In this document: one piece after another, positions 1-10,882 of the stretch
Position numbering within the stretch: the first letter of the stretch is position 1
Layout of the letters: every line of letters begins with the position of its first letter
UHGV virus genome: UHGV-1704817
DNA length: 10,882 nucleotides
Source of the DNA: a virus
Strand: one strand, 5' to 3'
Notes under the pieces: model-generated
What the model was told of the DNA's origin: nothing
Seen by the model: only the letters and a program-made list of their open reading frames with translations
Database searches by the model: none
Program-made: the position numbers and the translations under genes

Positions 1-397
1 CGAAAATATTGTTGAGCCGGGGCACACGTACTACATCAAGCCTGATGCGGTATATCTCGGCATCTACGAAGGATTAGTGCTGGCTGGCGTTCATGAAGTG
101 CGTAACTTCTGGCATAGCGTTGTTGAATGCCATGCGGTGTACGACCCCGGATTCCGTGGTGAATATGCACTGCAAGGGCATCGATTATTCTGCAAATGGC
201 TTCTCGAAAACTCACCATTCCTTAACAGCATCACTATGGTTCCTGACACCACAAAATATGGACGGGCAATTATCCGTTTGCTTGGCGCTACCCGTGTTGG
301 TCACCTTGATGATGCTTATATCAGATGTGGTAAACCCGTCGGCGTAACGCTTTATCAGTTAACTCGGCAACAATATAAGGAATTCAGCGAATGTTAA
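1..397 (+). CDS. Phage virion protein, C-terminal part of a gene that starts upstream of the window (position matches a P22 gp14-type gene; function not established)
   Basis: The reading frame is open from base 2 (ENIVEPGHTYYIKPDAVYLG...) and stops at TAA 395-397. Its stop overlaps the next start (ATGTTAA, ATG at 391), indicating translational coupling. Composition matches the following ejection-protein genes. Confidence 0.55.
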   Translation, partial: ENIVEPGHTYYIKPDAVYLGIYEGLVLAGVHEVRNFWHSVVECHAVYDPGFRGEYALQGHRLFCKWLLENSPFLNSITMVPDTTKYGRAIIRLLGATRVGHLDDAYIRCGKPVGVTLYQLTRQQYKEFSEC

Positions 398-1068
398 TTA
401 CCCATATAGCTCATAAACATCTCAATCGTGCCGTATACGAAAAAGGCGGTGATGGTGGTGCCTCTAAAGCTCAGGCGAAGGCCCAGCAGCAGGCAATTGA
501 TTTGCAGCGCGAGCAGTGGAATACGGTGATGAATAATCTCAAGCCGTATGCAGAAGTCGGATTGCCTGCTTTACAACAACTGCAAGGACTGATGACTCTG
601 GAAGGGCAGAATAAAGCCGCGAATGATTTCTTTGGTTCTGGTTTATATAAAACACAGGCAGATCAGGCCCGTTATCAGAACCTTGTCTCAGCAGAAGCTA
701 CCGGGGGGCTTGGCTCAACAGCTACCAGTAACCAGTTATCTTCCATTGCGCCCATGCTTTATAACAATTGGCTTAGTGGGCAAATGCAAAATTATGGAAA
801 CCTGCTAAATGTCGGGATGAATGCGGCATCAGGGCAGGCAACGGCAGGGCAAAACTACGCCAATAATACCGGACAACTCTTGCAGGGGCTTGGCGCTATT
901 CGTGCAGGTCAGGCGCAGCAGCCATCCAGTCTTGCGCGTGGTATTGGTGGGGCAGCATCAGGCGCTTTAGCGGGTGCGCAACTTGGTTCCGTTGTTCCTG
1001 GAATAGGAACTGCGGCCGGCGCTATTGGTGGTGGGCTTATTGGTCTTGTTGGGGGGCTTGGATTCTAA
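391..1068 (+). CDS. Phage DNA-ejection (internal virion) protein, gp7-like by position and size, with glycine-zipper C-terminus
   Basis: 225-aa ORF with AGGA at 378-381, 9 nt before the ATG. The C-terminal ~45 residues are Gly/Ala-rich (GIGGAASGALAGAQLGSVVPGIGTAAGAIGGGLIGLVGGLGF), typical of membrane-inserting segments. The start overlaps the upstream stop and the stop overlaps the downstream start (TAATG at 1066-1070). Confidence 0.8.
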   Translation: MLITHIAHKHLNRAVYEKGGDGGASKAQAKAQQQAIDLQREQWNTVMNNLKPYAEVGLPALQQLQGLMTLEGQNKAANDFFGSGLYKTQADQARYQNLVSAEATGGLGSTATSNQLSSIAPMLYNNWLSGQMQNYGNLLNVGMNAASGQATAGQNYANNTGQLLQGLGAIRAGQAQQPSSLARGIGGAASGALAGAQLGSVVPGIGTAAGAIGGGLIGLVGGLGF

Positions 1069-2387
1069 TGGCGACATGGCAACTTGGCGGGCTGCCTAGC
1101 ATGGCACCGCAAAATGATAATGCTCCTCGTTCTTCCGTTCCTCAGCCTGTGCAGTATCAGCAGCAGCCAAACGTAGGTTTAATGGCGCTACAGGGGCTAA
1201 GAGGCGTTGCTGAGATTAATCAGCAGGCGCAAATTTCCCAGCAGTTAAAAGAATATCAGGCACGGTTGGGTAGTGCGGTAGCTAATAATGATCGTGTTGG
1301 CGTGCAGAAGTTAATGGCCCAGTATCCCCAGTTTATGGCTGATTCTCAAAAACAGATGGGATTCATTGATGCTGAGCAAAATCGACAGACCGCTGACGCT
1401 GCCATGAATCTGCGTCTTGCGTCACAAACTGGAGATCCACTGACCATGCAGAAGGCCATTCAGCAGGCAAATCCAGTATTACAGCGATTTGGTCTTCCTG
1501 CTGAAGAGGTTTATCAGTCTTGGCAGAATGACCCACAGGAATTCAACAGAATCACTGACCTCATCCACCTCCATGCTGATCCAAATAGTTACTTTAGTGT
1601 TCAAGAGAAGCAGCAAGGGCAGAGCATTGCACAGCAGAACGCAGATACATCCGCATATAATGCTCAGGTTAATGCGGAACAGGGTAATCGACGTCTCGAT
1701 ATGGAGCAGTTCAAAGTCCTATCCGATAACCAACTACGCACGAGAGAAATGGTTCTGAAAGCACGACTTGGACGTGCTCAAAATGACATCGAGAGAGACA
1801 AGCTCAATGCTGAACTGAGCAAGGTACAGCAGGCGAAAGTGGAGAAGATGAACGATAAAATTAATACTGTTGTAGGTAACATCGACTCCTTGAACTCTGC
1901 GCTTGAAGTGGGTCATGAACTGGCGGGAATTGTAGGGAAACATCCTTCGGCCGTTACCCGCTCGCAGAACTATAACCCCCTGACGCTGGGGTTTGGATTC
2001 CTTCCTGATGTAGCAGAAGACACACGAAGCCTACGCGCCAAAGCTGATGAATACAACCTAAAGGTTATTCTGCCTAGCCTCAAAGGGACTTTTGGCTCTA
2101 ACCCAACCGAAGGGGAAAGGGCTGCCCTTATGCAATCTCAAAATGGCATTAAGTCAGCAACCAGCAATGAGGCATTTTTGCGAGAGTTGAATAAAGCGCA
2201 GGACGTAATTATTCGAATGCAGAAACGACAGATTGCCGGGCTCGGTATTCCTGTAACCAAATCTAAGGACGAAGAAACTGATACCAAAATGCTGTTGCAG
2301 GATCCTTCACTGGTTAAGGATTATGTGACCGCACATGGCTATCTGCCGGAAAGTTACTATCAGGCAAAACTTAAGGGATGGCAATGA
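1068..2387 (+). CDS. Phage DNA-ejection (internal virion) protein, gp20-like by position and size
   Basis: 439-aa ORF, Gln-rich and predicted helical, coupled to both neighbours (TAATG upstream, ATGA overlap downstream). Second gene of a three-gene block matching the gp7/gp20/gp16 order of P22-like podoviruses. Assignment is by synteny and size, not alignment. Confidence 0.75.
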   Translation: MATWQLGGLPSMAPQNDNAPRSSVPQPVQYQQQPNVGLMALQGLRGVAEINQQAQISQQLKEYQARLGSAVANNDRVGVQKLMAQYPQFMADSQKQMGFIDAEQNRQTADAAMNLRLASQTGDPLTMQKAIQQANPVLQRFGLPAEEVYQSWQNDPQEFNRITDLIHLHADPNSYFSVQEKQQGQSIAQQNADTSAYNAQVNAEQGNRRLDMEQFKVLSDNQLRTREMVLKARLGRAQNDIERDKLNAELSKVQQAKVEKMNDKINTVVGNIDSLNSALEVGHELAGIVGKHPSAVTRSQNYNPLTLGFGFLPDVAEDTRSLRAKADEYNLKVILPSLKGTFGSNPTEGERAALMQSQNGIKSATSNEAFLRELNKAQDVIIRMQKRQIAGLGIPVTKSKDEETDTKMLLQDPSLVKDYVTAHGYLPESYYQAKLKGWQ

Positions 2388-5104
2388 TGGCACAACTGAC
2401 AGAAAAACAGAAAGCCTATTCCCGTCATCTCGATGAAAAATATGGTTTCCCATCAGGGACGATGGAAACATTAGTTGGCAATGAATCTAGTGGTAACGGA
2501 AGTGCCGAGTCACCGAAAGGAGCTAGAGGATTTGCTCAACTGATGCCCTCAGTAATGAGTGATGCTGGTTATCGTGGAACAGATCCGCGCTCACTGCCAT
2601 TTGAAAAGCAAATGGATATCGCAGCAAACCATCTCAATAAAGGAATGAAGCGATTTGGTGATATAGGTATGGCATTGGCTGGGTATAATTCTGGCTATGC
2701 TCGTATTAATGCCGTCAGAAACGGTAAATCTACACTGCCAGATGAAACGGCTAATTACGTAAGTAAATTTGCAGATGCCGGAATAATCCCTGATGACAGT
2801 GAAATCTTGCAGTTTGCACAAACCAGTCAACATCGCAATCTTCAGCAGCCTGACTACTCAGAGCTTGATAAAGAAATCTCTCAGGTGGGAGATATTTCTG
2901 CATGGGAAGCAAAACGTCAGCAATTTAAGAACATAGAAGCAGGACTACCAACAGCCAGTTCATGGGAGCAGAAAAGAGCTCAGTTTCTCGCCGATGAAAA
3001 TGCCGGGGAACCGCAGCAGCAAGTAGCCAAGTCTAACCTTAATCCTGAGATGGAATATCTTTCGCCAGGACTGAAAGCTGCGCCAGAGCAGATGGCCAGA
3101 GGGATTGCTAATATACCGTTTGATGTAATGGACGCAGGCGTGGGGGTAGTCAATGCGGCGCAATCAGCCGGAGCATGGGCAGCTCAGAAGCTTGGTGTGG
3201 GTGATGGCACATACACGCCCATATCACCTGTCTTTCGCCCAGTAGACCAACCTACAGATCCATACGCGCAGGCTGGTGAGCAGCTAGCACCTTACCTTAT
3301 TACAGGATTAGGTGCAGGAAAGGCAGCTACCGCAGCTTCTTCAGTTGCCAACGCTCCACGTGCTGAACGTGCGGCCACAAAGGTGGCTAGTATGTTGGCA
3401 GAAAACCTGCCAGGTACATTGGTGAACGCCCAAAAGAACGGGCAGATCAGCCCAGAAGACCTAGCAAAAGAGACAGGTATTGGCCTAGCAGGATCGCTAG
3501 GAGCACGCGCTTTAATAAAGAGCGGACAGACAGCCAGTGACGTAATGCGAGATGTATTGCGGAGTAATACAAATCAATCAGGCCATGTGTTAGGGGCAGC
3601 AAATACTCTGGAAACCGCCAATGATGTATCGAAAGCAGCGCGTTCTGCCGTAGGCCGAGAGCATATCGCATCGCAGGCATCAAACGTCAGAGATGATGTC
3701 GCTAAGGCGGCGAAAATCACTGGTATTAATATCAACACCCTGACGCCTGGAATGCGCTCAGGTAGTCGTGGAATTGCCCAAGCAGAAGGTGTTCTGGCAT
3801 CAACTCCTGGGAATGTTCAGGATGCTCACCTTACGGCCTTCAATGAAATATCCTCAAAGTTGAATAAGCAGTTGTCTGATTTCGGTGCTGAGTCTGGAAG
3901 CGCATCAGAAAAAAGCGCAGCAATTAAAGAGCGCATCATCGCGAGCCTCAGTGATATGAAAACAGCAGAGAATATGGCATGGGCAGAACTGCGAAGCACG
4001 ATGCCACGCGAAAGGATGAAAATGAGTAATGGGATGGCTGTCGTCCAAGCAGAAAAAGCAGCCAATGTTCCACTCAGCCCGGAGATGAAACAGTTTCAGG
4101 CTGCCAACAACCAAGGTGGCGGCATAACCTTCGACGGGATGAAGGCATGGCGTGCTAAGTTTGCTGATGCTGAACAAGCAAACACCCGGGCAGGTAAGGC
4201 CAATGCCGCCCGGATTGCCGGAGAAATGCGCAGAGCTATCACTGATGACATGCGCATCATGGCTGAAAAAGGAAACTTCCTCACAGAATGGCAGAAAGCT
4301 AACGATCTCTCTAAAAGTTACATTATCGCCAAACAAAATGCCGAATCTGTTTTTGGTCGAGATCTCGCATCAGACGCTATGGTAAGAAAAGGTGCCGATA
4401 CGCTTAAGGCATCCGCAAACACTGGAACGGGAGCTTTTCACCGTCTTATCTCCGCGCTGCCGGAAGCAGAACGCCAACCTGCAATAGCATCTATTCTTCA
4501 GCATGCTGTGGCGCAGGGAGAGAAGGGAGGAATCGGTGAAGAGTCAGGTATCCAGTATTTTGCCAAGCTCATGACCCAGCAGAATGTAAACGCCATCAGT
4601 CGTCATGCGCCAGATCTCGGTAGAATGATGAAAGAGTTCGGTGTACTCGCTAAAGCCAGTACCAGACCGCAGCGATACGTAGAGCGCACGGGAAGAACAA
4701 CTGAGGCTCTCAAAACGCTCGATTCAGGCCTTCCAAAGATCGTCGGCGTGATTATGAACGGAGTTCAACAGTCAGGTGCGATCGCTGGAGGCTTTGGCGG
4801 TGGTGTAATTGGTTCGATTAGTGGTTTGGTTGCTGGTGGCGCGCTAAGAAATGCTGTGGCTAAGATTGGGGCGACAAGAAGTGGTCGATATGCGATAGAG
4901 AAAGCCGTTCAGGAAGCTACAAAAGCAGTGCGCGCAGGGGCATCACCAGCAGCGATCGCCGCAGCAGAGAAACGATTTTCGGCCAATAAAATTGCCATGA
5001 AAGCAATTCGTGATGCCGTTGGGGCTGAAGAATTCGTGAAACTGACAAGGGCCGGGATTGTAGCTACCCTCAGTGGCATGAAAGATGTTAGCGAATGGGA
5101 ATAG
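2384..5104 (+). CDS. Phage DNA-ejection / internal virion protein with N-terminal lytic transglycosylase (SLT) domain
   Basis: Long ORF ending at TAG 5102-5104. The SLT motif set is visible in the first ~120 residues: ES catalytic motif (LVGNESSGNG), GFAQLMP (GLMQ-like) and AGYNSGYARI (AYNxG-like). A glycine-zipper hydrophobic segment lies near the C-terminus (GAIAGGFGGGVIGSISGLVAGGAL). Start chosen at ATG 2384 because AAGGGA (2373-2378) sits 5 nt upstream; the six-frame track starts at 2378, which overlaps that SD; ATG 2387 is also possible. Confidence 0.85.
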   Translation: MMAQLTEKQKAYSRHLDEKYGFPSGTMETLVGNESSGNGSAESPKGARGFAQLMPSVMSDAGYRGTDPRSLPFEKQMDIAANHLNKGMKRFGDIGMALAGYNSGYARINAVRNGKSTLPDETANYVSKFADAGIIPDDSEILQFAQTSQHRNLQQPDYSELDKEISQVGDISAWEAKRQQFKNIEAGLPTASSWEQKRAQFLADENAGEPQQQVAKSNLNPEMEYLSPGLKAAPEQMARGIANIPFDVMDAGVGVVNAAQSAGAWAAQKLGVGDGTYTPISPVFRPVDQPTDPYAQAGEQLAPYLITGLGAGKAATAASSVANAPRAERAATKVASMLAENLPGTLVNAQKNGQISPEDLAKETGIGLAGSLGARALIKSGQTASDVMRDVLRSNTNQSGHVLGAANTLETANDVSKAARSAVGREHIASQASNVRDDVAKAAKITGININTLTPGMRSGSRGIAQAEGVLASTPGNVQDAHLTAFNEISSKLNKQLSDFGAESGSASEKSAAIKERIIASLSDMKTAENMAWAELRSTMPRERMKMSNGMAVVQAEKAANVPLSPEMKQFQAANNQGGGITFDGMKAWRAKFADAEQANTRAGKANAARIAGEMRRAITDDMRIMAEKGNFLTEWQKANDLSKSYIIAKQNAESVFGRDLASDAMVRKGADTLKASANTGTGAFHRLISALPEAERQPAIASILQHAVAQGEKGGIGEESGIQYFAKLMTQQNVNAISRHAPDLGRMMKEFGVLAKASTRPQRYVERTGRTTEALKTLDSGLPKIVGVIMNGVQQSGAIAGGFGGGVIGSISGLVAGGALRNAVAKIGATRSGRYAIEKAVQEATKAVRAGASPAAIAAAEKRFSANKIAMKAIRDAVGAEEFVKLTRAGIVATLSGMKDVSEWE

Positions 5105-5254: not shown

Positions 5255-5953
5255 ATGATTAAAAATCTTCTTTTAATATTATCCCTGTCATTATTGGCTG
5301 GATGCGTACAAAAACCGTTAGTAACGGTCAATGCTTTATCTTCCGGGCAATCTGTCGGTAAGAAGTTCTTGATCATCCCCGCAAGCCAAGAACTTTGGAA
5401 CACCAAACAGATTGAATACACTCAAATAGCTACGGTAGTAGCCGCCAGTTTATCAAGCCAAGGATATACACAAGTTAAAGATGAAAAATTGGCTGACCAG
5501 GTAATTCTCTTGAACTTTTTGAGAAGCGGGGCCATTTCAAATACTCGTAATGTAACCATCCCAATATACGGGCAAACTGGTGTGAGCTCAGCAACAACGT
5601 ACGGAAACTCGAACACCCCGTTCAATAGTTATGGTGGTGGCTACGGTACAGCTAATACCACTGGAACGGCAACAACAGTTTATACGCCTACTTATGGAAT
5701 TACTGGCGCGTATAACACAACTGTGACGGACACGTTCTACGGCGCAGGGGTGATACTCCAGTCGTTTGATGCCAAGGCTTATCTCAATAATCGGCAGATT
5801 AATATGTTATGGAAAGTTGGTAGCTCAGTCGTCTCGCAACAGTCTGATGGAATTGCTGATTACAAAGGGTTGGCGAGAATAGCCGCTAGCTATGCCGGGA
5901 AAAATACAGAAGGTGATATAACTTTTAATGTTGACCCTAAAGCACCAAATTAA
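5255..5953 (+). CDS. Putative lipoprotein (prophage cargo / moron), possible surface or superinfection-exclusion factor
   Basis: 232-aa ORF with SD AGGTGAG (5243-5249). N-terminus MIKNLLLILSLSLLAGC is a signal peptide with a lipobox (LLAG-C, Cys17). Central T/G/Y/N-rich low-complexity stretch (SATTYGNSNTPFNSYGGGYGTANTTGTATTVYTPTYGITGAYNTT). Gene is AT-rich relative to the upstream ejection genes and preceded by a 150-bp AT-rich intergenic region. Confidence 0.75.
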   Translation: MIKNLLLILSLSLLAGCVQKPLVTVNALSSGQSVGKKFLIIPASQELWNTKQIEYTQIATVVAASLSSQGYTQVKDEKLADQVILLNFLRSGAISNTRNVTIPIYGQTGVSSATTYGNSNTPFNSYGGGYGTANTTGTATTVYTPTYGITGAYNTTVTDTFYGAGVILQSFDAKAYLNNRQINMLWKVGSSVVSQQSDGIADYKGLARIAASYAGKNTEGDITFNVDPKAPN

Positions 5954-5960
5954 CTAATAA

Positions 5961-5986
5961 GCCCGGTACGCCGGGCATTCATGCCC
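5961..5986 (+). terminator. Putative intrinsic terminator hairpins downstream of the lipoprotein gene
   Basis: GCCCGG-tacg-CCGGGC (5961-5976) overlapping GGGCAT-tc-ATGCCC (5973-5986), 8 nt after the lipoprotein stop. The following U-tract is weak (ATTCAT..TTATTC), so the call is tentative. Confidence 0.35.
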
Positions 5987-6034
5987 CTATTATTCATGAA
6001 TCGCTTTTTCTGGAAGGTATGCGACAAACGTTAA

Positions 6035-6319
6035 GTGACATTGCCTACACATTCGGGCTCAAATCCGCTCCCAGTTGATGGGGCCGTTACAGTACGCGCA
6101 TATCCGCTTTATGTGAAACAGGAAGATTTTTCTGATATCACAGCCACAGCAAAACACCAATTTCGAGACAAGTACGCACACAATGGAGGGGAGTACCATG
6201 AAACTGTTCTCTACACGAGACAGAGTGGTGGTGATGTGTTGATTATCGGCGTATATGCGCACAGGACGCGCTATGACAATGTTTTATGCGGGTACACCAA
6301 TCACATGTATCTGGTGTGA
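6035..6319 (+). CDS. Questionable ORF (94 codons, GTG start only, no SD); overlaps repeat copy 1; probably a gene relic or non-coding
   Basis: No in-frame ATG start; the track's first codon is GTG at 6035 with no upstream Shine-Dalgarno. Contains the conserved GACAAGTACGC element at 6167-6177. Confidence 0.15.
   Translation: MTLPTHSGSNPLPVDGAVTVRAYPLYVKQEDFSDITATAKHQFRDKYAHNGGEYHETVLYTRQSGGDVLIIGVYAHRTRYDNVLCGYTNHMYLV
6159..6181 (+). repeat. Copy 1 of a diverged direct repeat with perfectly conserved 11-mer GACAAGTACGC
   Basis: AATTTCGA-GACAAGTACGC-ACAC, with the 11-mer at 6167-6177. Same orientation as copies at 6400-6410 and 9105-9115. All three share ATTT(C/T)G(N)GACAAGTACGC(R)C(R)C. Confidence 0.7.
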
Positions 6320-6342
6320 TAAATCGCGTTACATGACCTCTC

Positions 6343-6540
6343 ATGTTGTGCTGGTGGTTATCACGACGTTCTGAATCTGGCTTTTGTCTGATATTTTGCG
6401 ACAAGTACGCGCGCGTAACATCGAAATTATCGGATGGCGTATGTTGCTGGCAAGATAAAGCCGGCGTAATACAAAGGCGTTACTTGATAGCAGCAAGATT
6501 ACAACAATGGTTGTTGAATTTGAGCGATGTAAGGAATTGA
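6343..6540 (+). CDS. Questionable ORF (65 codons); overlaps repeat copy 2; probably non-coding
   Basis: No convincing SD, and the ORF is Cys/Trp-rich in an unusual way. Contains GACAAGTACGC at 6400-6410. Confidence 0.12.
   Translation: MLCWWLSRRSESGFCLIFCDKYARVTSKLSDGVCCWQDKAGVIQRRYLIAARLQQWLLNLSDVRN
6391..6419 (+). repeat. Copy 2 of the GACAAGTACGC repeat family
   Basis: ATATTTTGC-GACAAGTACGC-GCGCGTAAC, with the 11-mer at 6400-6410. About 45 bp around the core aligns with copy 3 at roughly 75% identity with one indel (ctggcttttgtctgatattttgc vs ctggcggtttctggtatttcgg upstream of the core). Confidence 0.7.
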
Positions 6541-6751
6541 TTTAGGGAGGCGCTGATGGCTAAAAAGTTCCACTACCAGCGGATGAATGCGCCAGCGATG
6601 GCCGTTTGGTAGTAAAAGAGGAGCCATTCCTCAATCAGTTGAATACATTATGCCAACTAAATGGGTGGGGCACTGTGTGGGTATTCAGCGGTGACGGTAT
6701 TTTTTAAGCCAAGGACTATCCGTAGCAGGGGGACTCATTTTGAAATATTTA

Positions 6752-7189
6752 TCATATGTAACTTATTATTTTAGATAAAGATTTCCAGTTAAAGAAAAAA
6801 GTTATCATTGATATAATCAAATATGCCCCTGCGAGTAGCAGGGCATAATAATCCAGAGGCAGATTGCTGACAACAGGGGCAAACATCGAGATCATTGCTA
6901 ATAGGCAGGCTGTGATCAGCGTAGTTCCTGTATCAAAAAGCCCCTCAATAATGCCTTTTAGTACTCCGTTACTTTTTAGAGCGCCTACAATTCCCTTTGA
7001 ACTATCAAAGCTACTTAGCATGGTGACTGATGCCAAAACAAAACCAAAGAGAACTCCAGAAATAGTTGAAAGAGCACCAGCAGCCGAAATGACAGCATTG
7101 TGATCTAGGTCGTGTAAAAAATGGGCACCAGCAATAGCCATAGCTAGAGCAAACAATGACTTGGCAGCAAACAATTTCCGAGAACTCAT
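6752..7189 (-). CDS. Small multi-pass inner-membrane protein (145 aa, about four TM helices); second gene of a two-gene operon; candidate membrane effector
   Basis: Minus-strand ORF with AGGA 7 nt upstream of its ATG. It starts 12 bp after the TAA stop of the 361-aa gene. Four long hydrophobic segments (about residues 9-24, 32-60, 85-110, 113-135) and an HDLDH motif in the first loop. AT-rich. Confidence 0.75.
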   Translation of the reverse strand: MSSRKLFAAKSLFALAMAIAGAHFLHDLDHNAVISAAGALSTISGVLFGFVLASVTMLSSFDSSKGIVGALKSNGVLKGIIEGLFDTGTTLITACLLAMISMFAPVVSNLPLDYYALLLAGAYLIISMITFFFNWKSLSKIISYI

Positions 7190-7201
7190 AATGTATTCCT
7201 G

Positions 7202-8287
7202 TTACGTTTGACTAACCAAATAGTACTGGGTTAGATACCTAAGGTTGTCATTCTTTGCTTGTAGCATAGCATTTTTAACGTCAGTATCGGTCGGATACCC
7301 ATCTGCTTGGATAGGCACCATCTTCTTTACCGTAAGAACTTCGTCTACAAGACTTTTCTTCTTTTTATCGCCCTGAGCAACAACATTTGCTTTCTCAAAA
7401 GTTAAACGACCATCACCACCAGGGAACTTTTCTAGCATCTCCTTAAGGCTTTTTTTAACGTCATCCTCAAGCCATCCCTTTGCTTTTCTTTTTAATGGAG
7501 AATGTCCGCGTAACGAAATAGTCAGGTGGCTTGAACTGGTGCCTCTGATCATCTCAATCATCTGATTCGCGAACATTCCATCGAGTTGATACTGTGCGGC
7601 ATTGAAGTTTCTTGGGATGGCCACAGAAATCTCGCAGCTTCTTAGATTGGATCCAGTTTCGAGTAGTTCTTTGATGCTTTCTTCTTTCCAAATGGCTTCA
7701 AAAGAAACAGGGACTCCGCGATCACTGGAGTTGAAAAGAAGGAAGGCTAAGTCACTATGGCGTGGACCTAAATGATTTAAAGACAATACTAGAATGTCTG
7801 TCTGAGGATAATAAATAAAGTATGTACGTTCTGAAAGAGTCTTTGCCCCGGCTAGAGGGATTTTCTCTTCCACCCACTCTTTATCTGTAATATATGCCAG
7901 TGTTGCGCTTTTTCTTCTTCGAGACATGAATCCGAAGTAGGAGCCATCCTCGGGTGAGATGTCTAGAAAATGAATTTTAAGTTCTCTTTCACCAAAGTCT
8001 GCATAGTGGGTCATCTTGAAGTCTTTAGAACACCGATCATACAGATTTTTAAAGGCCTCTGCGGTTAACCCCTTGTTACTAGTGCGAATATTCTCAGAGC
8101 TTGTGTAAAAGCCCACCCTTACAGATTTCAAACTTTGATCTTTTGGTGCCACAGTCATTTGAGCTCCATTGTACTCTGCGATAGTTTTTGCACACCTTGA
8201 AATCAAAATCTCCATGTCAGTCACGAGAAAATAACTATGGATGAAACCCATCAAAGGCATTGAATACAGGTGGCTTTTGAGAATCAT
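7202..8287 (-). CDS. Hypothetical soluble protein (361 aa), first gene of a two-gene operon with the downstream membrane protein; candidate sensor/enzymatic component of a defence or abortive-infection module
   Basis: Long minus-strand ORF with AGG(T) about 5 nt upstream of ATG 8287. A sampled 60-bp stretch (7441-7500) is 38% GC, against roughly 50% by eye for the phage late genes. No Walker A or other catalytic motif recognised by eye. Preceded by a 487-bp AT-rich divergent control region. Confidence 0.8.
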   Translation of the reverse strand: MILKSHLYSMPLMGFIHSYFLVTDMEILISRCAKTIAEYNGAQMTVAPKDQSLKSVRVGFYTSSENIRTSNKGLTAEAFKNLYDRCSKDFKMTHYADFGERELKIHFLDISPEDGSYFGFMSRRRKSATLAYITDKEWVEEKIPLAGAKTLSERTYFIYYPQTDILVLSLNHLGPRHSDLAFLLFNSSDRGVPVSFEAIWKEESIKELLETGSNLRSCEISVAIPRNFNAAQYQLDGMFANQMIEMIRGTSSSHLTISLRGHSPLKRKAKGWLEDDVKKSLKEMLEKFPGGDGRLTFEKANVVAQGDKKKKSLVDEVLTVKKMVPIQADGYPTDTDVKNAMLQAKNDNLRYLTQYYLVSQT

Positions 8288-8637
8288 CCTAACCTGGTGA
8301 CGGTGGTTCGCATATCCTGATGGATGATCAGTGATTAATCAATGCGCCAAGCAGATGTGTCTATGTGTTTGTTAATCATTGCATGACAGTAGATCGACAT
8401 GGGAGATCACGTTATATAGTTGAATTGTTAGGATATCCATGCACCGATCAACTGACTAGGCTGATGTGCTTTTTAGCAGGTGCCATATAGTAGTTAGGCG
8501 GTTCTGTGAAATGATTACTGTTCCAGCATAACTGCGGCATAAAGCGGTGCTATATAAGCTATTTGCTGGCGGATTTAGTCTTCACCGTTAATATATGTAG
8601 TGACTATTTGACAGAGTGTTAGTTCACGGACACTTTT

Positions 8638-8670
8638 TGTTGGTTCAAAATGAGTTGATGTTGGTTCAAT
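8638..8670. repeat. Two copies of TGTTGGTTCAA (reverse complement of TTGAACCAACA) spaced 21 bp apart; putative regulator-binding sites
   Basis: TGTTGGTTCAA at 8638-8648 and 8659-8669, start-to-start spacing 21 bp (two helical turns). Inverted relative to the tandem array at 8712-8738. Confidence 0.65.
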
Positions 8671-8711
8671 ATTTTAGAAAAAACACAATAAAAACAACGC
8701 TCTTTACAAAT

Positions 8712-8738
8712 TGAACCAACTGAACCAACTGAACCAAC
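8712..8738. repeat. Three perfect tandem copies of TGAACCAAC (iteron/operator-like) immediately upstream of the PerC-like gene promoter region
   Basis: TGAACCAAC at 8712-8720, 8721-8729 and 8730-8738 with no spacer, ending 17 bp before TATAAT (8756-8761). Confidence 0.7.
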
Positions 8739-8774
8739 ACCTTTTTGCTTATCTATATAATCTGAGAGGCAGAA

Positions 8775-9056
8775 ATGATAAGGGACAGGAAAGCTGAAGA
8801 GCTGGAGTCAAAAGGGCTATACCGGAGAGCTGCCGCACGATGGATGGAAGTCATGCTGTTATGCACCGAGGACGATGATCGGGAATGGATAAAGCGCCGC
8901 CGTGAAACGTGTCTGGAGAACGTGAAGCGCCCGCCCGTGAAGGTTGAGGAATTTGGCGACCTGCATAAAGCTGTTACCGAAACGCAACACCGCATGGGGA
9001 TAGCGCAACCGAACGGTAACGCCTTCCGGTTAAATGGCGGCAAGAGGCAAAGGTAG
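8775..9056 (+). CDS. PerC-family-like small transcriptional regulator (prophage-encoded, Pch/PerC-type)
   Basis: 93-aa ORF with SD GAGAGG 5 nt upstream. The N-terminal motif AEELESKGLYRRAAARWMEVMLL matches the LE..G(L/W).RRAA.RW signature I recall for PerC/Pch proteins; this is from memory, not alignment. Basic C-terminus. GC is higher than in the flanking cargo. Confidence 0.6.
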   Translation: MIRDRKAEELESKGLYRRAAARWMEVMLLCTEDDDREWIKRRRETCLENVKRPPVKVEEFGDLHKAVTETQHRMGIAQPNGNAFRLNGGKRQR

Positions 9057-9094
9057 ACCACCAGAGGGAAATCATCCTCTGGCTGGCGGTTTCT

Positions 9095-9123
9095 GGTATT
9101 TCGGGACAAGTACGCGCACGCGT
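9095..9123 (+). repeat. Copy 3 of the GACAAGTACGC repeat family
   Basis: GGTATTTCGG-GACAAGTACGC-GCACGCGT, with the 11-mer at 9105-9115, 49 bp downstream of the PerC-like stop and in the same reading frame as that gene. Confidence 0.7.
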
Positions 9124-9228
9124 AGCACCCAATCGGTGAGGAAATAGCGGCGACCTGAATGGTCAAAATCACAACGCAGCTATCCCCGTAAGCATCGCTT
9201 AACGGAATAGCAGTAACCTGAATCCAGT

Positions 9229-9293
9229 GGGGAGGGGGTAGTCAAATCTCTACAGGCCTGACTATCCGGGACTGCCCGCCCCATCGTTTTTTT
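9229..9293 (+). terminator. Putative Rho-independent terminator (GC-rich imperfect stem plus T7 tract)
   Basis: GGGGAGGG (9229-9236) can pair with CCCGCCCC (9275-9282), giving 7 GC pairs and one mismatch around an internal CGGG-actg-CCCG hairpin (9267-9278). It is followed by ATCG and TTTTTTT (9287-9293). The structure is non-canonical, hence low confidence. Confidence 0.35.
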
Positions 9294-9353
9294 ATACCCG
9301 CGAAAAATGAAATTTAATCCGGGCGTGTTTCATCCTTCCAGAGGGTATGACGT

Positions 9354-9539
9354 ATGACACCACGCGAAATAGCCTTATTGACCATCGCCAAACTTGAGCA
9401 CGGAGGCCACCAGCTTACACAGGCAGATCAACGGGAGATAGAACGATCAGTTAATGCCGATATAGCCCGGCGCGACAGGTTCCGCGAAATGATGCGAGCA
9501 CCTGCCTACCAGTGGAAGAAGCCAGCGCCGCGCAGGTAG
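9354..9539 (+). CDS. Small hypothetical protein (61 aa), predicted helical and basic
   Basis: ATG preceded by GAGGG with 8-nt spacing, located just after the putative terminator, suggesting its own transcription unit. No recognisable family motif. Confidence 0.45.
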   Translation: MTPREIALLTIAKLEHGGHQLTQADQREIERSVNADIARRDRFREMMRAPAYQWKKPAPRR

Positions 9540-9659
9540 ATATGGGATTATTCCACATGTAACTTATGCGTATTAAGCAAATTTCCTTTATTCACCTTTA
9601 CAGAATTGTGAGTACGTCAGTATCGTTATCCTTCCGATTCGCATTTATTCAGGATTTGC

Positions 9660-10202
9660 ATGTACCAGCTAAAGATAACCATCCGAGACAGCAAACCACC
9701 TATATGGCGGCGTGTGCTGGTTCCAGAGCAAATCCCCTTTAGTAAACTTCATGCCGTGATCCAGTTAGCTTTTGGCTGGAATGACGAACACCTGTATATG
9801 TTCGAGAAAGGGCGTAAAGGTGATCCAGGTAGCGAGTATCGCGTATGGGGTGAGGATGAAAGCATGGGTAACGCGGCAATCACGCCACTATGGGCGGCGC
9901 TCCAGAATGAGGGTGACAAGCTGGTTTACACGTATGACTTTGGCGACTGGTGGGATTGCGTCATTGTGCTGGAGAAGCAAACACACGATACGAGTAATCA
10001 GCCCATTAGCTGCCTGCGTGGGAAAGGCACCACCCCGGCGGAAAACTCAGGCGGCTTGCATGGTTACAATGAATTGCTATTACAGGCCAGAGAGTCTGAT
10101 AATCCTGAGCAGGCCGAGATCCACAATTTCCTGATGCTGGATATTGAACGCCGGGTTTACGACCTGAGCCGCATCAACGACAGATTGCAGGCTATTAACT
10201 GA
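9660..10202 (+). CDS. PRiA4_ORF3-like (plasmid pRiA4b ORF-3 / MM3350-like domain) protein
   Basis: 180-aa ORF with AGGA 5 nt upstream. The N-terminus YQLKITIRDSKPPIWRRVLVPEQIPFSKLHAVIQLAFGW matches the hallmark of this family (YQLK..L....PPIWRR..VP......LH..IQ...GW) from memory. Confidence 0.7.
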   Translation: MYQLKITIRDSKPPIWRRVLVPEQIPFSKLHAVIQLAFGWNDEHLYMFEKGRKGDPGSEYRVWGEDESMGNAAITPLWAALQNEGDKLVYTYDFGDWWDCVIVLEKQTHDTSNQPISCLRGKGTTPAENSGGLHGYNELLLQARESDNPEQAEIHNFLMLDIERRVYDLSRINDRLQAIN

Positions 10203-10554
10203 CCCGCATGTATTCACCTGATATTGAGTTATCAGCGCCGCCAGTATCGCGCATAACAGCACAATGACCGGGTAAACCGTAACGCACGACCGTTGCGTTA
10301 GTCTCACCGCCGCGCCGTATCTGGCGCGATTCATACACTGTCACCCGCTCAAGCAGTCCACCAGCAACCATGCTTTCCAGTGTGCGCCGGGTTGATTCGA
10401 GCTGGTGACGCTTATCGAACGACACCATGCCATGAAGCAGGTAGGCCACACCCGACACATCGAACGGCGGCGCACCACTCTCACCAGTCACCCATTCGAG
10501 GTTATCCGGTTCAAAGTAGCTAAGTATCTCTTTTTTGCGGCTGGTCATTCTCAT
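10195..10554 (-). CDS. Hypothetical protein, putative winged-helix DNA-binding protein; convergent with and overlapping the 3' end of the PRiA4_ORF3-like gene by 8 bp
   Basis: 119-aa minus-strand ORF with AAGGAA 13 nt upstream of the ATG. Segment RRTLESMVAGGLLERVTVYESRQIRRGG resembles a recognition helix plus wing (GLLER followed by a beta-hairpin) of wHTH regulators. GC-rich relative to the cargo. Confidence 0.5.
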   Translation of the reverse strand: MRMTSRKKEILSYFEPDNLEWVTGESGAPPFDVSGVAYLLHGMVSFDKRHQLESTRRTLESMVAGGLLERVTVYESRQIRRGGETNATVVRYGLPGHCAVMRDTGGADNSISGEYMRVS

Positions 10555-10703
10555 GGCTGGTTGATTCCTTATTGTGGGATAGCACTATCATACAATAAGT
10601 GGGTTAAAGGGAGAGCGTTACCGCCTGATATGCTGTATGAATAACAACCAAATTTCAGGGGCGGAAAAAGATATGGGGGTACTTTTGGGGGTATCTATAA
10701 AAA

Positions 10704-10882
10704 ATGAACAATAAAAAAGGCAACAAAAACAAAGCTTATCGCCTATGTGTATTGTTCCTATTATCGCACCATTTAAATCAAGTAGTTACCCCATATTTAA
10801 ATACACCACGTTTCCTCCTGTGCCGTATTTGTGCCATTGTAACCCTGGCAATTAATCAAAATACTGTTCTGACATCAGGCAA
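10704..10882 (+). CDS. Possible 5' end of a gene running off the window (59 codons open, Lys/Asn-rich N-terminus then a hydrophobic stretch); very tentative
   Basis: ATG at 10704 is open to the window end in frame (MNNKKGNKNKAYRLCVLFLLSHHL...). There is no good SD and the region is AT-rich, so this may simply be open frame in intergenic DNA. Confidence 0.15.
   Translation, partial: MNNKKGNKNKAYRLCVLFLLSHHLNQVVTPYLNTPRFLLCRICAIVTLAINQNTVLTSG

What the first reader, a model, noticed from the sequence alone, without database searches (positions are those of the whole stretch)
8638..8738. Five-copy operator/iteron-like array of the 9-mer TGAACCAAC (3 tandem direct plus 2 inverted at helical phasing) in the divergent control region
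Seen in sequence: three perfect head-to-tail copies of TGAACCAAC (8712-8738) lie 17 bp upstream of a TATAAT hexamer and the RBS of the PerC-like gene. Two further copies in the opposite orientation (TGTTGGTTCAA at 8638 and 8659) are spaced exactly 21 bp apart, about 44 bp upstream of the tandem block. Inference: perfect conservation and helical phasing point to a cooperative binding-site array for a dedicated DNA-binding protein (candidates in this window are the PerC-like protein or the 119-aa putative wHTH protein), possibly coordinating the PerC-like gene and the divergent two-gene operon. The array is far too short and spacer-less to be CRISPR.
Basis: partly seen in the sequence, partly recalled or inferred. 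Interest (0 to 1): 0.55.

Follow-up and report, generated by a model that had tools for sequence, protein, structure and literature searches.

The report
Second replication-origin module of a phage satellite
The repeat array is most likely a set of binding sites for the replication initiator (primase-helicase) of an EcCIMP1-type phage satellite island of E. coli, forming a second, inverted copy of the island's replication origin; it is probably not an operator for the neighbouring PerC-like gene.

Summary
Three copies of GTTGGTTCA (one degenerate) sit 21 bp apart, then a 43-nt AT-rich spacer, then three head-to-tail TGAACCAAC.

The window is the right ~10.7 kb of an EcCIMP1-like phage-inducible chromosomal island at tRNA-Thr. 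In complete islands an inverted twin of this module lies 26 bp after the stop codon of the island's primase-helicase, a Zn-ribbon/Toprim/DUF927 protein related to SaPI Rep. The window's module lies 7-9.6 kb further on.

Across 63 primase loci from Enterobacterales, 61 carry such arrays directly 3' of the gene, using at least 8 different repeat words. The word tracks a basic motif in the wing of a predicted C-terminal winged helix: 41/41 loci with TGAACCAAC have the motif, and 21/21 loci without the motif lack the word. It does not track PerC or the 119-aa protein, which stay 88-93% identical in islands that use TGAGACAAC.

This is the published PICI origin layout, iteron sets flanking an AT-rich melting region. 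The new points are the split, inverted, two-module arrangement around variable cargo, which resembles P4 ori/crr, and the motif-to-word correspondence. Binding and origin firing are inferred, not shown.

The parts
8618..8626 (-). Outer spaced iteron. Degenerate here (TGAACTAAC on the - strand, one mismatch); perfect in other E. coli islands.
8639..8647 (-). Spaced iteron TGAACCAAC (- strand), 21 bp from its neighbours.
   Evidence: Invariant in 11 islands from 9 genera.
8660..8668 (-). Spaced iteron TGAACCAAC (- strand), 21 bp from the previous copy.
8669..8711 (.). 43-nt AT-rich spacer (21% G+C), the putative melting region. It ends in the invariant TTTACAAAT (8703-8711).
   Evidence: composition; length fixed at 43 nt, 72-88% A+T in all 11 islands, TTTACAAAT column identity 0.99.
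8712..8738 (+). Three head-to-tail iterons TGAACCAAC.
   Evidence: Column identity 0.97 across genera. Copy number 2-4 among E. coli strains, modal 3.
8739..8761 (+). Role unknown: possibly a weak promoter or an extra easily melted stretch.
   Evidence: column identity 0.75 across genera, and present even where perC is not the next gene; no promoter called.
8775..9056 (+). PerC-family gene immediately downstream. It is a neighbour, not the binder. The product is identical to WP_000617443.1, the PerC-family protein annotated in EcCIMP1 of strain MP1.
   Evidence: PMC11773190 (EcCIMP1_025 silences LEE1-lux).
10756..10765 (+). att core TCCTATTATC, the right end of the island.
   Evidence: Core sequence from PMC11773190.

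Best explanation
The array is 'module B' of the replication origin of an EcCIMP1-type phage-inducible chromosomal island (PICI).

Proposed mechanism:
1. A P22-like helper phage induces the island, and the island's fused primase-helicase (Pri-Rep: Zn-ribbon + Toprim + DUF927 helicase + C-terminal winged helix) is made.
2. The wing of its C-terminal domain reads the 9-mer TGAACCAAC.
3. Rep oligomers assemble on the oppositely oriented iteron sets on each side of the 43-nt AT-rich spacer, melt it, load themselves as helicase and prime DNA synthesis, as SaPI Rep does.

The canonical copy (module A) lies 26 bp after the pri-rep stop codon, outside the window. The window's copy is its inverted paralogue, 7-9.6 kb downstream and just before perC. 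The two modules bracket the variable cargo (ejection-protein genes and small accessory cassettes). Module B would act either as a second origin or as a Rep-bound partner site that pairs with module A, like ori and crr of satellite P4.

Shown: the architecture, the duplication, conservation across genera, co-variation of the word with the Rep wing motif, and the fold of the Rep C-terminal domain.
Inferred: binding, melting, firing, and any A-B pairing.
For: (1) Context. The window is an EcCIMP1-like PICI at tRNA-Thr. It is 99-100% identical to E. coli islands carrying int, alpA, antA/B, ash and a primase, and it has the gene set of EcCIMP1 of strain MP1. That island excises, circularises and is transduced by phage Kapi1 (PMC11773190).

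(2) Twin module. The same 9-mer forms a mirror-image module starting 26 bp after the pri-rep stop in L001, L002, L081, L084 and L085. Both modules have a 43-nt AT-rich spacer, and they share a 46-nt identical stretch, CTCTTTACAAAT + 3 iterons + ACACCTTTT.

(3) Family rule. In 61 of 63 primase loci from Enterobacterales, an array in both orientations starts 26-100 bp after the stop codon, using at least 8 different words.

(4) Specificity.
- 41/41 loci with at least 3 exact TGAACCAAC have RG[YF]QRKSPR[IV] near the Rep C-terminus. 21/21 loci without that motif have at most one copy.
- Islands 93-94% identical in the helicase body switch to TGAGACAAC together with QGRV-RE.
- A single S-to-T change accompanies TGAACCGAC in L022.
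- Both modules switch together in the split island L063, which uses TGGGAYAAGT.

(5) Protein.
- The DUF927 part matches SaPI Rep 8tch by sequence (E = 1e-11).
- The AlphaFold2 model of the C-terminal domain has pLDDT 92.4.
- The co-varying motif is the first strand of the wing hairpin.

(6) Literature. [quoted passage not shown] (7) Spacings are quantised at 9, 11 and 21 bp.
Against: - No experiment links this Rep to this DNA.
- The window's module is not next to pri-rep, which is where PICI origins are defined. Module A may therefore be the only firing origin, and module B something else, such as copy control, a regulatory site or a recombination anchor.
- Orphan copies exist. Island L083 has a P4-alpha-type primase with different iterons yet keeps module B. 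Strain 8E keeps module B after losing pri-rep.
- In the closest whole-window relative, pri-rep is an N-terminally truncated pseudogene, so the array may be inert in some hosts.
- The tandem copy number varies from 2 to 4.
- Many islands of the family manage with the two modules adjacent, or with one module only, so a distal module is not obligatory.
Confidence: 0.75

Rival explanations
1. Rep-bound control site rather than a firing origin. Module B binds Pri-Rep but mainly limits copy number by pairing with module A (handcuffing or titration, as with incA of P1 or incC of F). Alternatively it gates rightward transcription of perC and the right-end genes through the conserved TATA-rich flank. 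This is not exclusive with the main explanation.
For: - Module B is distal to pri-rep, while module A occupies the canonical origin position.
- A conserved T-rich/TATA-rich element follows the tandem block in all genera.
- The last iteron covers the -35 position relative to the TATAAT.
- perC or other right-end genes always follow module B.
Against: - Module B has the complete origin anatomy, including a fixed 43-nt AT-rich spacer between opposed iteron sets. A pure titration or operator site would not need that.
- No sigma-70 promoter was called.
- The TATAAT lies 13 nt from the ATG, so a transcript from it would lack the ribosome-binding site.
Confidence: 0.25
2. One reading: an operator array for the PerC-like protein or the 119-aa protein, coordinating perC with the divergent two-gene operon.
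For: The array lies between divergent genes and just upstream of perC. PerC-family proteins are transcription regulators (PMC11773190).
Against: - PerC (92-93% identical) and the 119-aa protein (88-93% identical) are present in islands L008 and L012, whose arrays use TGAGACAAC and which have no TGAACCAAC anywhere.
- In L013, L020 and L026, perC follows module A and other genes follow module B.
- An identical module sits 3' of pri-rep, where there is no perC.
- The divergent operon (6752-8287) is variable cargo that is absent from MP1, 042 and 8E, while the array stays.
Confidence: 0.05
3. Recombination anchor. The two inverted modules serve mainly as conserved homology (or recombinase sites) that lets islands exchange the cargo lying between them. 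This is not exclusive with the main explanation.
For: - Cargo between modules A and B differs between otherwise near-identical islands.
- Many E. coli hits begin to match exactly at the second spaced iteron (query position 39), and the sequence to the left of it differs.
- Mosaic island L083 joins a foreign replication module to module B.
Against: - No cargo-associated recombinase was seen.
- The shared identical stretch is only about 46 nt.
- Exchange at conserved sequence is expected as a by-product of any conserved functional site.
- This model does not explain the AT-rich spacer, the phasing or the co-variation with Rep.
Confidence: 0.1
4. Neutral relic or simple-sequence expansion: a decaying duplicate of the origin with slippage-prone 9-mers and no present function.
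For: Copy number of the tandem block is 2-4 among E. coli strains. Orphan modules exist without the cognate Rep. The outermost copy is degenerate in this window.
Against: - The module is kept in E. coli, Leclercia, Cedecea, Lonsdalea, Chimaeribacter, Rosenbergiella, Pantoea, Serratia and Erwinia, with iterons near-invariant and inter-iteron DNA divergent.
- Three tandem copies occur in 38 of 43 cases.
- Module B switches word together with Rep in L063.
Confidence: 0.05

Closest known systems
PICI / SaPI replication origins (SaPIbov1, SaPI1, SaPI5; Gram-negative EcCICFT073)
   Same: - Short iterons in two oppositely oriented sets flank an AT-rich region.
- The initiator is a self-loading helicase, here fused to a primase, whose C-terminal winged helix reads the iterons.
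- The ori - (ssb) - perC gene order is also seen in EcCICFT073.
   Different: - The window's module is not adjacent to pri-rep. It is a second, inverted copy 7-9.6 kb away, with cargo genes between the two.
- The iterons are 9-mers, not the penta- or hexamers of SaPIs.
- The tested E. coli PICI (EcCICFT073) uses another Rep family (D5_N/DUF5906/Pox_D5) and another word, CTGTCTACC.
- No origin has been described for EcCIMP1.
Satellite phage P4 bipartite origin (ori + crr, bound by the alpha protein)
   Same: - Two clusters of the same short iteron, in both orientations, lie kilobases apart. One (crr) is directly 3' of the primase-helicase gene and the other is 4.7 kb away (P4 record).
- The N-terminal Zn-ribbon/Toprim primase is homologous (33% identity, E = 2e-41).
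- The adjacent-module form found in other islands of this family (about 250 bp) recalls the two 120-bp repeats of crr.
   Different: - The helicase and origin-binding parts are not homologous: P4 alpha has D5_N/DUF5906/Pox_D5, this protein has DUF927 plus a SaPI-Rep-like C-terminal domain.
- The word differs: TGTTCAC(C/A) against TGAACCAAC.
- The rest of the element is not P4-like (no sid, psu or delta).
- Whether both modules are required in cis is unknown here.
Iteron plasmids with auxiliary iteron clusters (P1 incC/incA, F incB/incC, R6K gamma with alpha/beta)
   Same: A second cluster of initiator-binding repeats lies at a distance from the origin. In those plasmids it acts by pairing, looping or titration (my own knowledge, not tested here).
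   Different: - Those initiators are RepA/pi-type winged-helix dimers that need host DnaA, DnaB and DnaC, not self-loading helicases.
- Their auxiliary clusters lack their own AT-rich spacer flanked by opposed repeats.

Membership tests
PICI/SaPI-type replication origin | [quoted passage not shown] | tested here: met
   Three copies at 8618-8668 and three at 8712-8738, around a 43-nt spacer with 21% G+C. Definition from PMC6092414 Fig. 2 legend.
PICI/SaPI-type replication origin | At least two iterons on each side, pointing in opposite directions | tested here: met
   Left set on the - strand, right set on the + strand. Criterion from PMC9371898.
PICI/SaPI-type replication origin | Located immediately 3' of the rep (pri-rep) gene | tested here: not met
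   The window's module is 7.3-9.5 kb from the pri-rep stop. Its inverted twin (module A) does sit 26 bp after the stop.
PICI/SaPI-type replication origin | Cognate Rep with a C-terminal winged-helix domain whose specificity matches the iteron word | tested here: met
PICI/SaPI-type replication origin | Supports Rep-dependent autonomous replication | not testable with these tools
   Needs a pri-rep + module plasmid assay, as done for EcCICFT073 (PMC6092414).
P4 ori/crr bipartite origin | Two iteron clusters kilobases apart, one directly 3' of the primase-helicase gene | tested here: met
   L001, L002, L081, L084, L085 and nine other genera. P4 layout from record NC_001609.
P4 ori/crr bipartite origin | Initiator is a P4 alpha-type protein (D5_N/DUF5906 helicase + Pox_D5 origin-binding domain) recognising TGTTCACC | tested here: not met
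   Only the primase part is homologous. The helicase is DUF927 and the word differs.
P4 ori/crr bipartite origin | Both clusters required in cis for replication | not testable with these tools
   Needs deletion analysis.
Transcriptional operator of PerC or of the 119-aa protein | Site sequence follows the regulator across relatives | tested here: not met
   PerC is 92-93% and the 119-aa protein 88-93% identical in L008 and L012, where the word is TGAGACAAC and TGAACCAAC is absent.
Transcriptional operator of PerC or of the 119-aa protein | Overlaps a functional promoter | tested here: inconclusive
   The consensus scan found no promoter. The TATAAT is 17 nt after the array but 13 nt from the ATG. 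A TATA-rich flank is conserved.
CRISPR array | Repeats of 25-40 nt separated by unique spacers of similar length | tested here: not met
   The repeats are 9-mers, head-to-tail or 21 bp apart, in both orientations.

The most novel reading that the evidence does not exclude
EcCIMP1-type satellites have a truly bipartite origin. Two complete, inverted Rep-loading modules sit on roughly opposite sides of the excised ~20-kb circle. They must pair through Rep, as P4 ori and crr do, or fire together. The interval they bracket is a dedicated exchange site for cargo, so replication-origin DNA doubles as the boundary of an accessory-gene cassette. In addition, a few residues in one strand of the Rep wing act as a readable code for the iteron word.
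Probability: 0.2. Interest if true: 0.6.

Novelty: new variant of a known kind. Interest (0 to 1): 0.42.

Why it matters
PICIs spread virulence and defence genes, and EcCIMP1-like islands or their remnants occur in about a tenth of complete E. coli genomes (537 of 5426 hold this module). The origin of EcCIMP1 has not been described.

This analysis:
- assigns the origin and its initiator;
- shows that the family keeps a second, inverted origin module that brackets the variable cargo;
- gives a simple, testable correspondence between a short wing motif and the 9-mer (QRKSPRI with TGAACCAAC, QGRV-RE with TGAGACAAC, QRKTPRI with TGAACCGAC, and so on).

The correspondence could be used to predict incompatibility or cross-replication between co-resident satellites, and to engineer orthogonal replicons. 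It also corrects a tempting misreading: PerC-family genes in satellites sit next to origins by synteny, not because PerC binds there.

Tried and rejected
- **Phage collection:** no match for the region.
- **Promoter and terminator scan of 8200-9400:** nothing found.
- **Rfam and tRNA scans of the window:** nothing found.
- **PADLOC on seven ORFs flanking the array (window 5255-10554):** no hits.
- **Full-text search for the 9-mer:** only unrelated primers and similar.
- **Sequence-profile searches of the Rep C-terminal domain against the PDB:** no significant hit.
- **First AlphaFold2 run, with 8 close sequences:** pLDDT 42.6, discarded. It was rerun with 40 diverse sequences from the representative search.
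- **P4-alpha-type initiator:** considered and rejected, because only the primase domain is shared.
- **PerC or the 119-aa protein as binder:** rejected on co-occurrence.
- **CRISPR and simple satellite DNA:** rejected.
- **Pac site for the P22-like helper:** considered but not tested. Nothing in the anatomy suggests it.
- **Not done:** a count of tandem copy number across all 537 E. coli genomes, and a search for inversion of the cargo between the two inverted modules.

Full report
**1. The observation**

The sequence is as described. Three perfect head-to-tail TGAACCAAC lie at 8712-8738 (Tandem Repeats Finder: period 9, 3.0 copies, 100% matches). Two perfect reverse-orientation copies lie at 8639-8647 and 8660-8668, 21 bp apart. 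TATAAT is at 8756-8761 and the ATG of a PerC-family ORF is at 8775.

A one-mismatch search adds a sixth copy, GTTAGTTCA at 8618-8626, again 21 bp upstream. That copy is perfect in other E. coli strains. The unit is therefore three copies 21 bp apart on one strand, a 43-nt spacer with 21% G+C (window mean 47%), then three tandem copies on the other strand. Five exact copies of one 9-mer within 101 bp are far beyond chance; about 0.08 exact hits are expected in the whole window (my own calculation).

**2. Where the window comes from**

- The region is 99.8-100% identical to chromosomal DNA of many E. coli strains and has no match among deposited phages.
- In complete genomes it lies in an island inserted at tRNA-Thr between proA and yagU. 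The island carries an integrase, an AlpA-family regulator, an AntA/B antirepressor, an Ash-family protein, a 918-aa 'TOPRIM and DUF927' primase, P22-type ejection-protein genes, perC, a pRiA4b-ORF3-like gene and a 119-aa ORF.
- This is the gene set of EcCIMP1 of E. coli MP1. Pick et al. showed that this phage-inducible chromosomal island excises, circularises and is transduced by the P22-like phage Kapi1. They also showed that its PerC-like protein silences LEE1 (PMC11773190).
- Their att core, TCCTATTATC, is at window 10756-10765, so the window is the right ~10.7 kb of such an island.
- That paper does not mention an origin or iterons.

**3. A twin next to the primase gene**

In L001 the same 9-mer forms a second cluster that starts 26 bp after the primase stop codon. 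It has three tandem copies on the - strand, a 43-nt spacer with 16% G+C, then three + strand copies spaced 11 and 21 bp apart.

Read on the opposite strand it has the same layout as the window's module (in the tandem block and spacer). The two share a 46-nt identical stretch: CTCTTTACAAAT, three iterons, ACACCTTTT. The same pair is present in L002, L081, L084 (strain 042) and in EcCIMP1 itself, 7.3-9.5 kb apart and inverted. I call the primase-proximal copy module A and the window's copy module B.

**4. The family rule**

A scan of one genome per species returned 77 loci encoding relatives of the primase.

- In 61 of the 63 loci with enough downstream sequence, a short word repeated in both orientations starts 26-100 bp after the stop codon.
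- At least eight words are used: TGAACCAAC, TGAGACAAC, TGAACCGAC, ACGGGTTA, GTGGGTTA, GTCGGGTA, AACCGACC and TGGGAYAAGT.
- Two layouts exist. In the first, both modules are adjacent (about 250 bp) between pri-rep and the next gene, for example L004. In the second, module A is followed by 1-9.6 kb of other genes and then module B. This split layout occurs in E. coli, Leclercia, Cedecea, Lonsdalea, Chimaeribacter, Rosenbergiella, Pantoea, Serratia and Erwinia.
- In an alignment of module B from 11 islands, the inner iterons and the tandem block are nearly invariant (column identity 0.97-1.0; 0.81 for the outermost copy). The DNA between iterons is not (0.58-0.74). The spacer is always 43 nt and 72-88% A+T, and TTTACAAAT abutting the tandem block is invariant.
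- Same-strand spacings are quantised: 9 bp (86 cases), 11 bp (39), 21 bp (76), and 18 bp (23, where the middle tandem copy has a mismatch).

**5. Who reads the word**

The word co-varies with a short basic motif about 25 residues from the primase C-terminus.

| Motif near the Rep C-terminus | Iteron word |
|---|---|
| SGRGYQRKSPRI | TGAACCAAC |
| SGRGYQGRV-RE | TGAGACAAC |
| DGRGYQRKTPRI | TGAACCGAC (L022) |
| KGVTRKTLRI | TGAACCGAC (L043, L045, L056, L059) |
| DRLKKKALKKM | ACGGGTTA |
| SGKNWQIRTPRLKH | TGGGAYAAGT |

(Table.)

- All 41 loci with at least three exact TGAACCAAC copies have RG[YF]QRKSPR[IV]. All 21 loci without the motif have at most one copy.
- This is not just overall divergence. 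L008, L010 and L011 are 93-94% identical to the E. coli protein in the helicase body, the same as L004-L006, yet they carry the other motif and the other word.
- In L008 and L012 every position of the two-module architecture carries TGAGACAAC.
- In the split island L063 both module A and module B, 7.7 kb apart, carry TGGGAYAAGT.

PerC is 92-93% identical and the 119-aa protein 88-93% identical in L008 and L012, which contain no TGAACCAAC at all. In several genera perC follows module A and other genes follow module B.

**6. The protein**

- Pfam finds Zn_Ribbon_Prim, Toprim_3 and DUF927.
- The first 360 residues are 33% identical to the primase part of P4 alpha (E = 2e-41). The rest is not related to P4 alpha, which has D5_N, DUF5906 and Pox_D5.
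- The DUF927 part matches the SaPI Rep structure 8tch (E = 1e-11) and the SCCmec helicase Cch 5dgk by sequence.
- The last 175 residues have no sequence match in the PDB. They do have about 1500 relatives in the representative library.
- With 40 of those relatives, AlphaFold2 gives a confident model (pLDDT 92.4): a three-helix bundle followed by a strand, two helices and a beta-hairpin.
- The co-varying motif (residues 142-153 of the fragment) is the first strand of the wing hairpin.

**7. Comparison with what is known**

[quoted passage not shown] They showed that the EcCICFT073 pri-rep-ori segment drives plasmid replication (PMC6092414). Qiao et al. describe SaPI Reps as self-loading helicases whose C-terminal winged helix binds iterons that point in opposite directions on each side of an AT-rich region (PMC9371898).

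The window's module meets these anatomical criteria, and its presumptive initiator is a SaPI-Rep homologue. I therefore file it as a PICI-type origin module.

It fails one defining feature: it is not adjacent to rep. The nearest precedent for two iteron clusters kilobases apart is satellite P4. There, crr (two 120-bp repeats carrying type-1 iterons) lies directly 3' of alpha, and ori lies 4.7 kb away (record NC_001609). That system's helicase and origin-binding domains are not homologous to this one, and its word is different. The resemblance is in how it works, not in family membership.

EcCICFT073 itself uses yet another Rep type (D5_N/DUF5906/Pox_D5) and the word CTGTCTACC. It has the order ori - hyp - ssb - perC. 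This shows that perC lying next to an origin is ordinary PICI synteny.

**8. What remains uncertain**

Binding, melting and firing are all inferred. Module A may be the only firing origin. Module B may instead be a partner or copy-control site, or may gate rightward transcription through the semi-conserved T-rich/TATA-rich flank at 8739-8761. However, no sigma-70 promoter is called, and the TATAAT is only 13 nt from the ATG.

Points that weaken the case for a required function:
- Orphan module B copies exist. Island L083 has a P4-alpha-type primase with its own iterons (CCTGTACCACCTATACC). Strain 8E has lost pri-rep.
- In the closest whole-window relative, pri-rep is truncated.
- The tandem block has 2, 3 or 4 copies in different E. 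coli strains, although 38 of 43 occurrences in viral contigs have three.

Homology between many E. coli islands and the window starts exactly at the second spaced iteron, and the cargo between the modules differs between near-identical islands. The modules therefore also behave as recombination boundaries. That is expected for any conserved site and is not exclusive with an origin role.

**9. Verdict**

The array is real, strongly non-random and conserved. It is best explained as the iteron set of a second, inverted origin-type module of an EcCIMP1-like PICI, read by the wing of the island's Pri-Rep.

- Neither PerC nor the 119-aa protein is the likely binder.
- Control of perC is at most a side effect.
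- The kind of element is known. The split, inverted two-module arrangement and the wing-motif-to-word correspondence are, as far as the searched literature shows, undescribed.

Noticed in passing
window 391-5104: Three P22-type ejection-protein genes are carried by a satellite whose helper is P22-like: phrog_598 'DNA ejection', phrog_917/2534, and phrog_770 fused to a lytic transglycosylase. Sister islands carry different alleles or sets (a 449-aa plus a 701-aa protein in L001). The EcCIMP1 paper labels them only as 'DNA transfer'.
   Followed up: partly
window 6752-8287 (- strand): A two-gene cassette: a 145-aa membrane protein (phrog_8552) and a 361/318-aa protein (phrog_7651). It has no Pfam or PADLOC hit. 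It is present in L001, L002 and L081 but replaced by other small genes in MP1, 042, 8E and E1648. It is variable cargo abutting module B and a candidate exclusion or defence function.
   Followed up: partly
window 5255-5953: A 232-aa ORF with a lipoprotein-like N-terminus (LLAGC) and no hit in Pfam, PHROGs or PADLOC. It is conserved in EcCIMP1 of strain MP1.
   Followed up: no
window 10697-10765: The att core TCCTATTATC (10756-10765) marks the right end of the island. A 15-nt tandem repeat (about 2.6 copies, consensus ATAAAAAAGGAACA) lies just inside it at 10697-10734 and may be integrase arm-type sites.
   Followed up: no
L083 (E. coli E1648) 1754-4300 and 11981-12092: A mosaic island. Its primase is of the P4-alpha type (Zn-ribbon/Toprim/DUF5906) with its own downstream repeats (CCTGTACCACCTATACC). 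It nevertheless keeps an orphan TGAACCAAC module B (3 spaced + 2 tandem copies) in front of perC.
   Followed up: partly
L002 (E. coli TUM17668) 12475-14173: In the genome closest to the whole window (99.3%), pri-rep is an N-terminally truncated pseudogene, and a retron Ec67-type RT and a DUF262 gene lie just outside the integrase end. The island there is probably replication-defective.
   Followed up: no
L087 (E. coli CFT073) 12997-13284: The experimentally tested EcCICFT073 origin carries CTGTCTACC/GGTAGACAG iterons 3' of a D5_N/DUF5906/Pox_D5 Pri-Rep. It is followed by hyp - ssb - perC, so the same ori-perC synteny occurs with an unrelated initiator.
   Followed up: partly
L008 13130-13570, L012 6668-7125: In islands with adjacent origin modules, an SSB gene sits between the origin and perC, where the E. 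coli islands have kilobases of cargo.
   Followed up: no
window 9354-10554: The right-end trio is conserved across genera downstream of module B, whichever cargo is present: a 61-aa ORF, a pRiA4b-ORF3-like gene, and the 119-aa ORF on the opposite strand, which overlaps the end of the pRiA4b-like gene by 8 nt.
   Followed up: no
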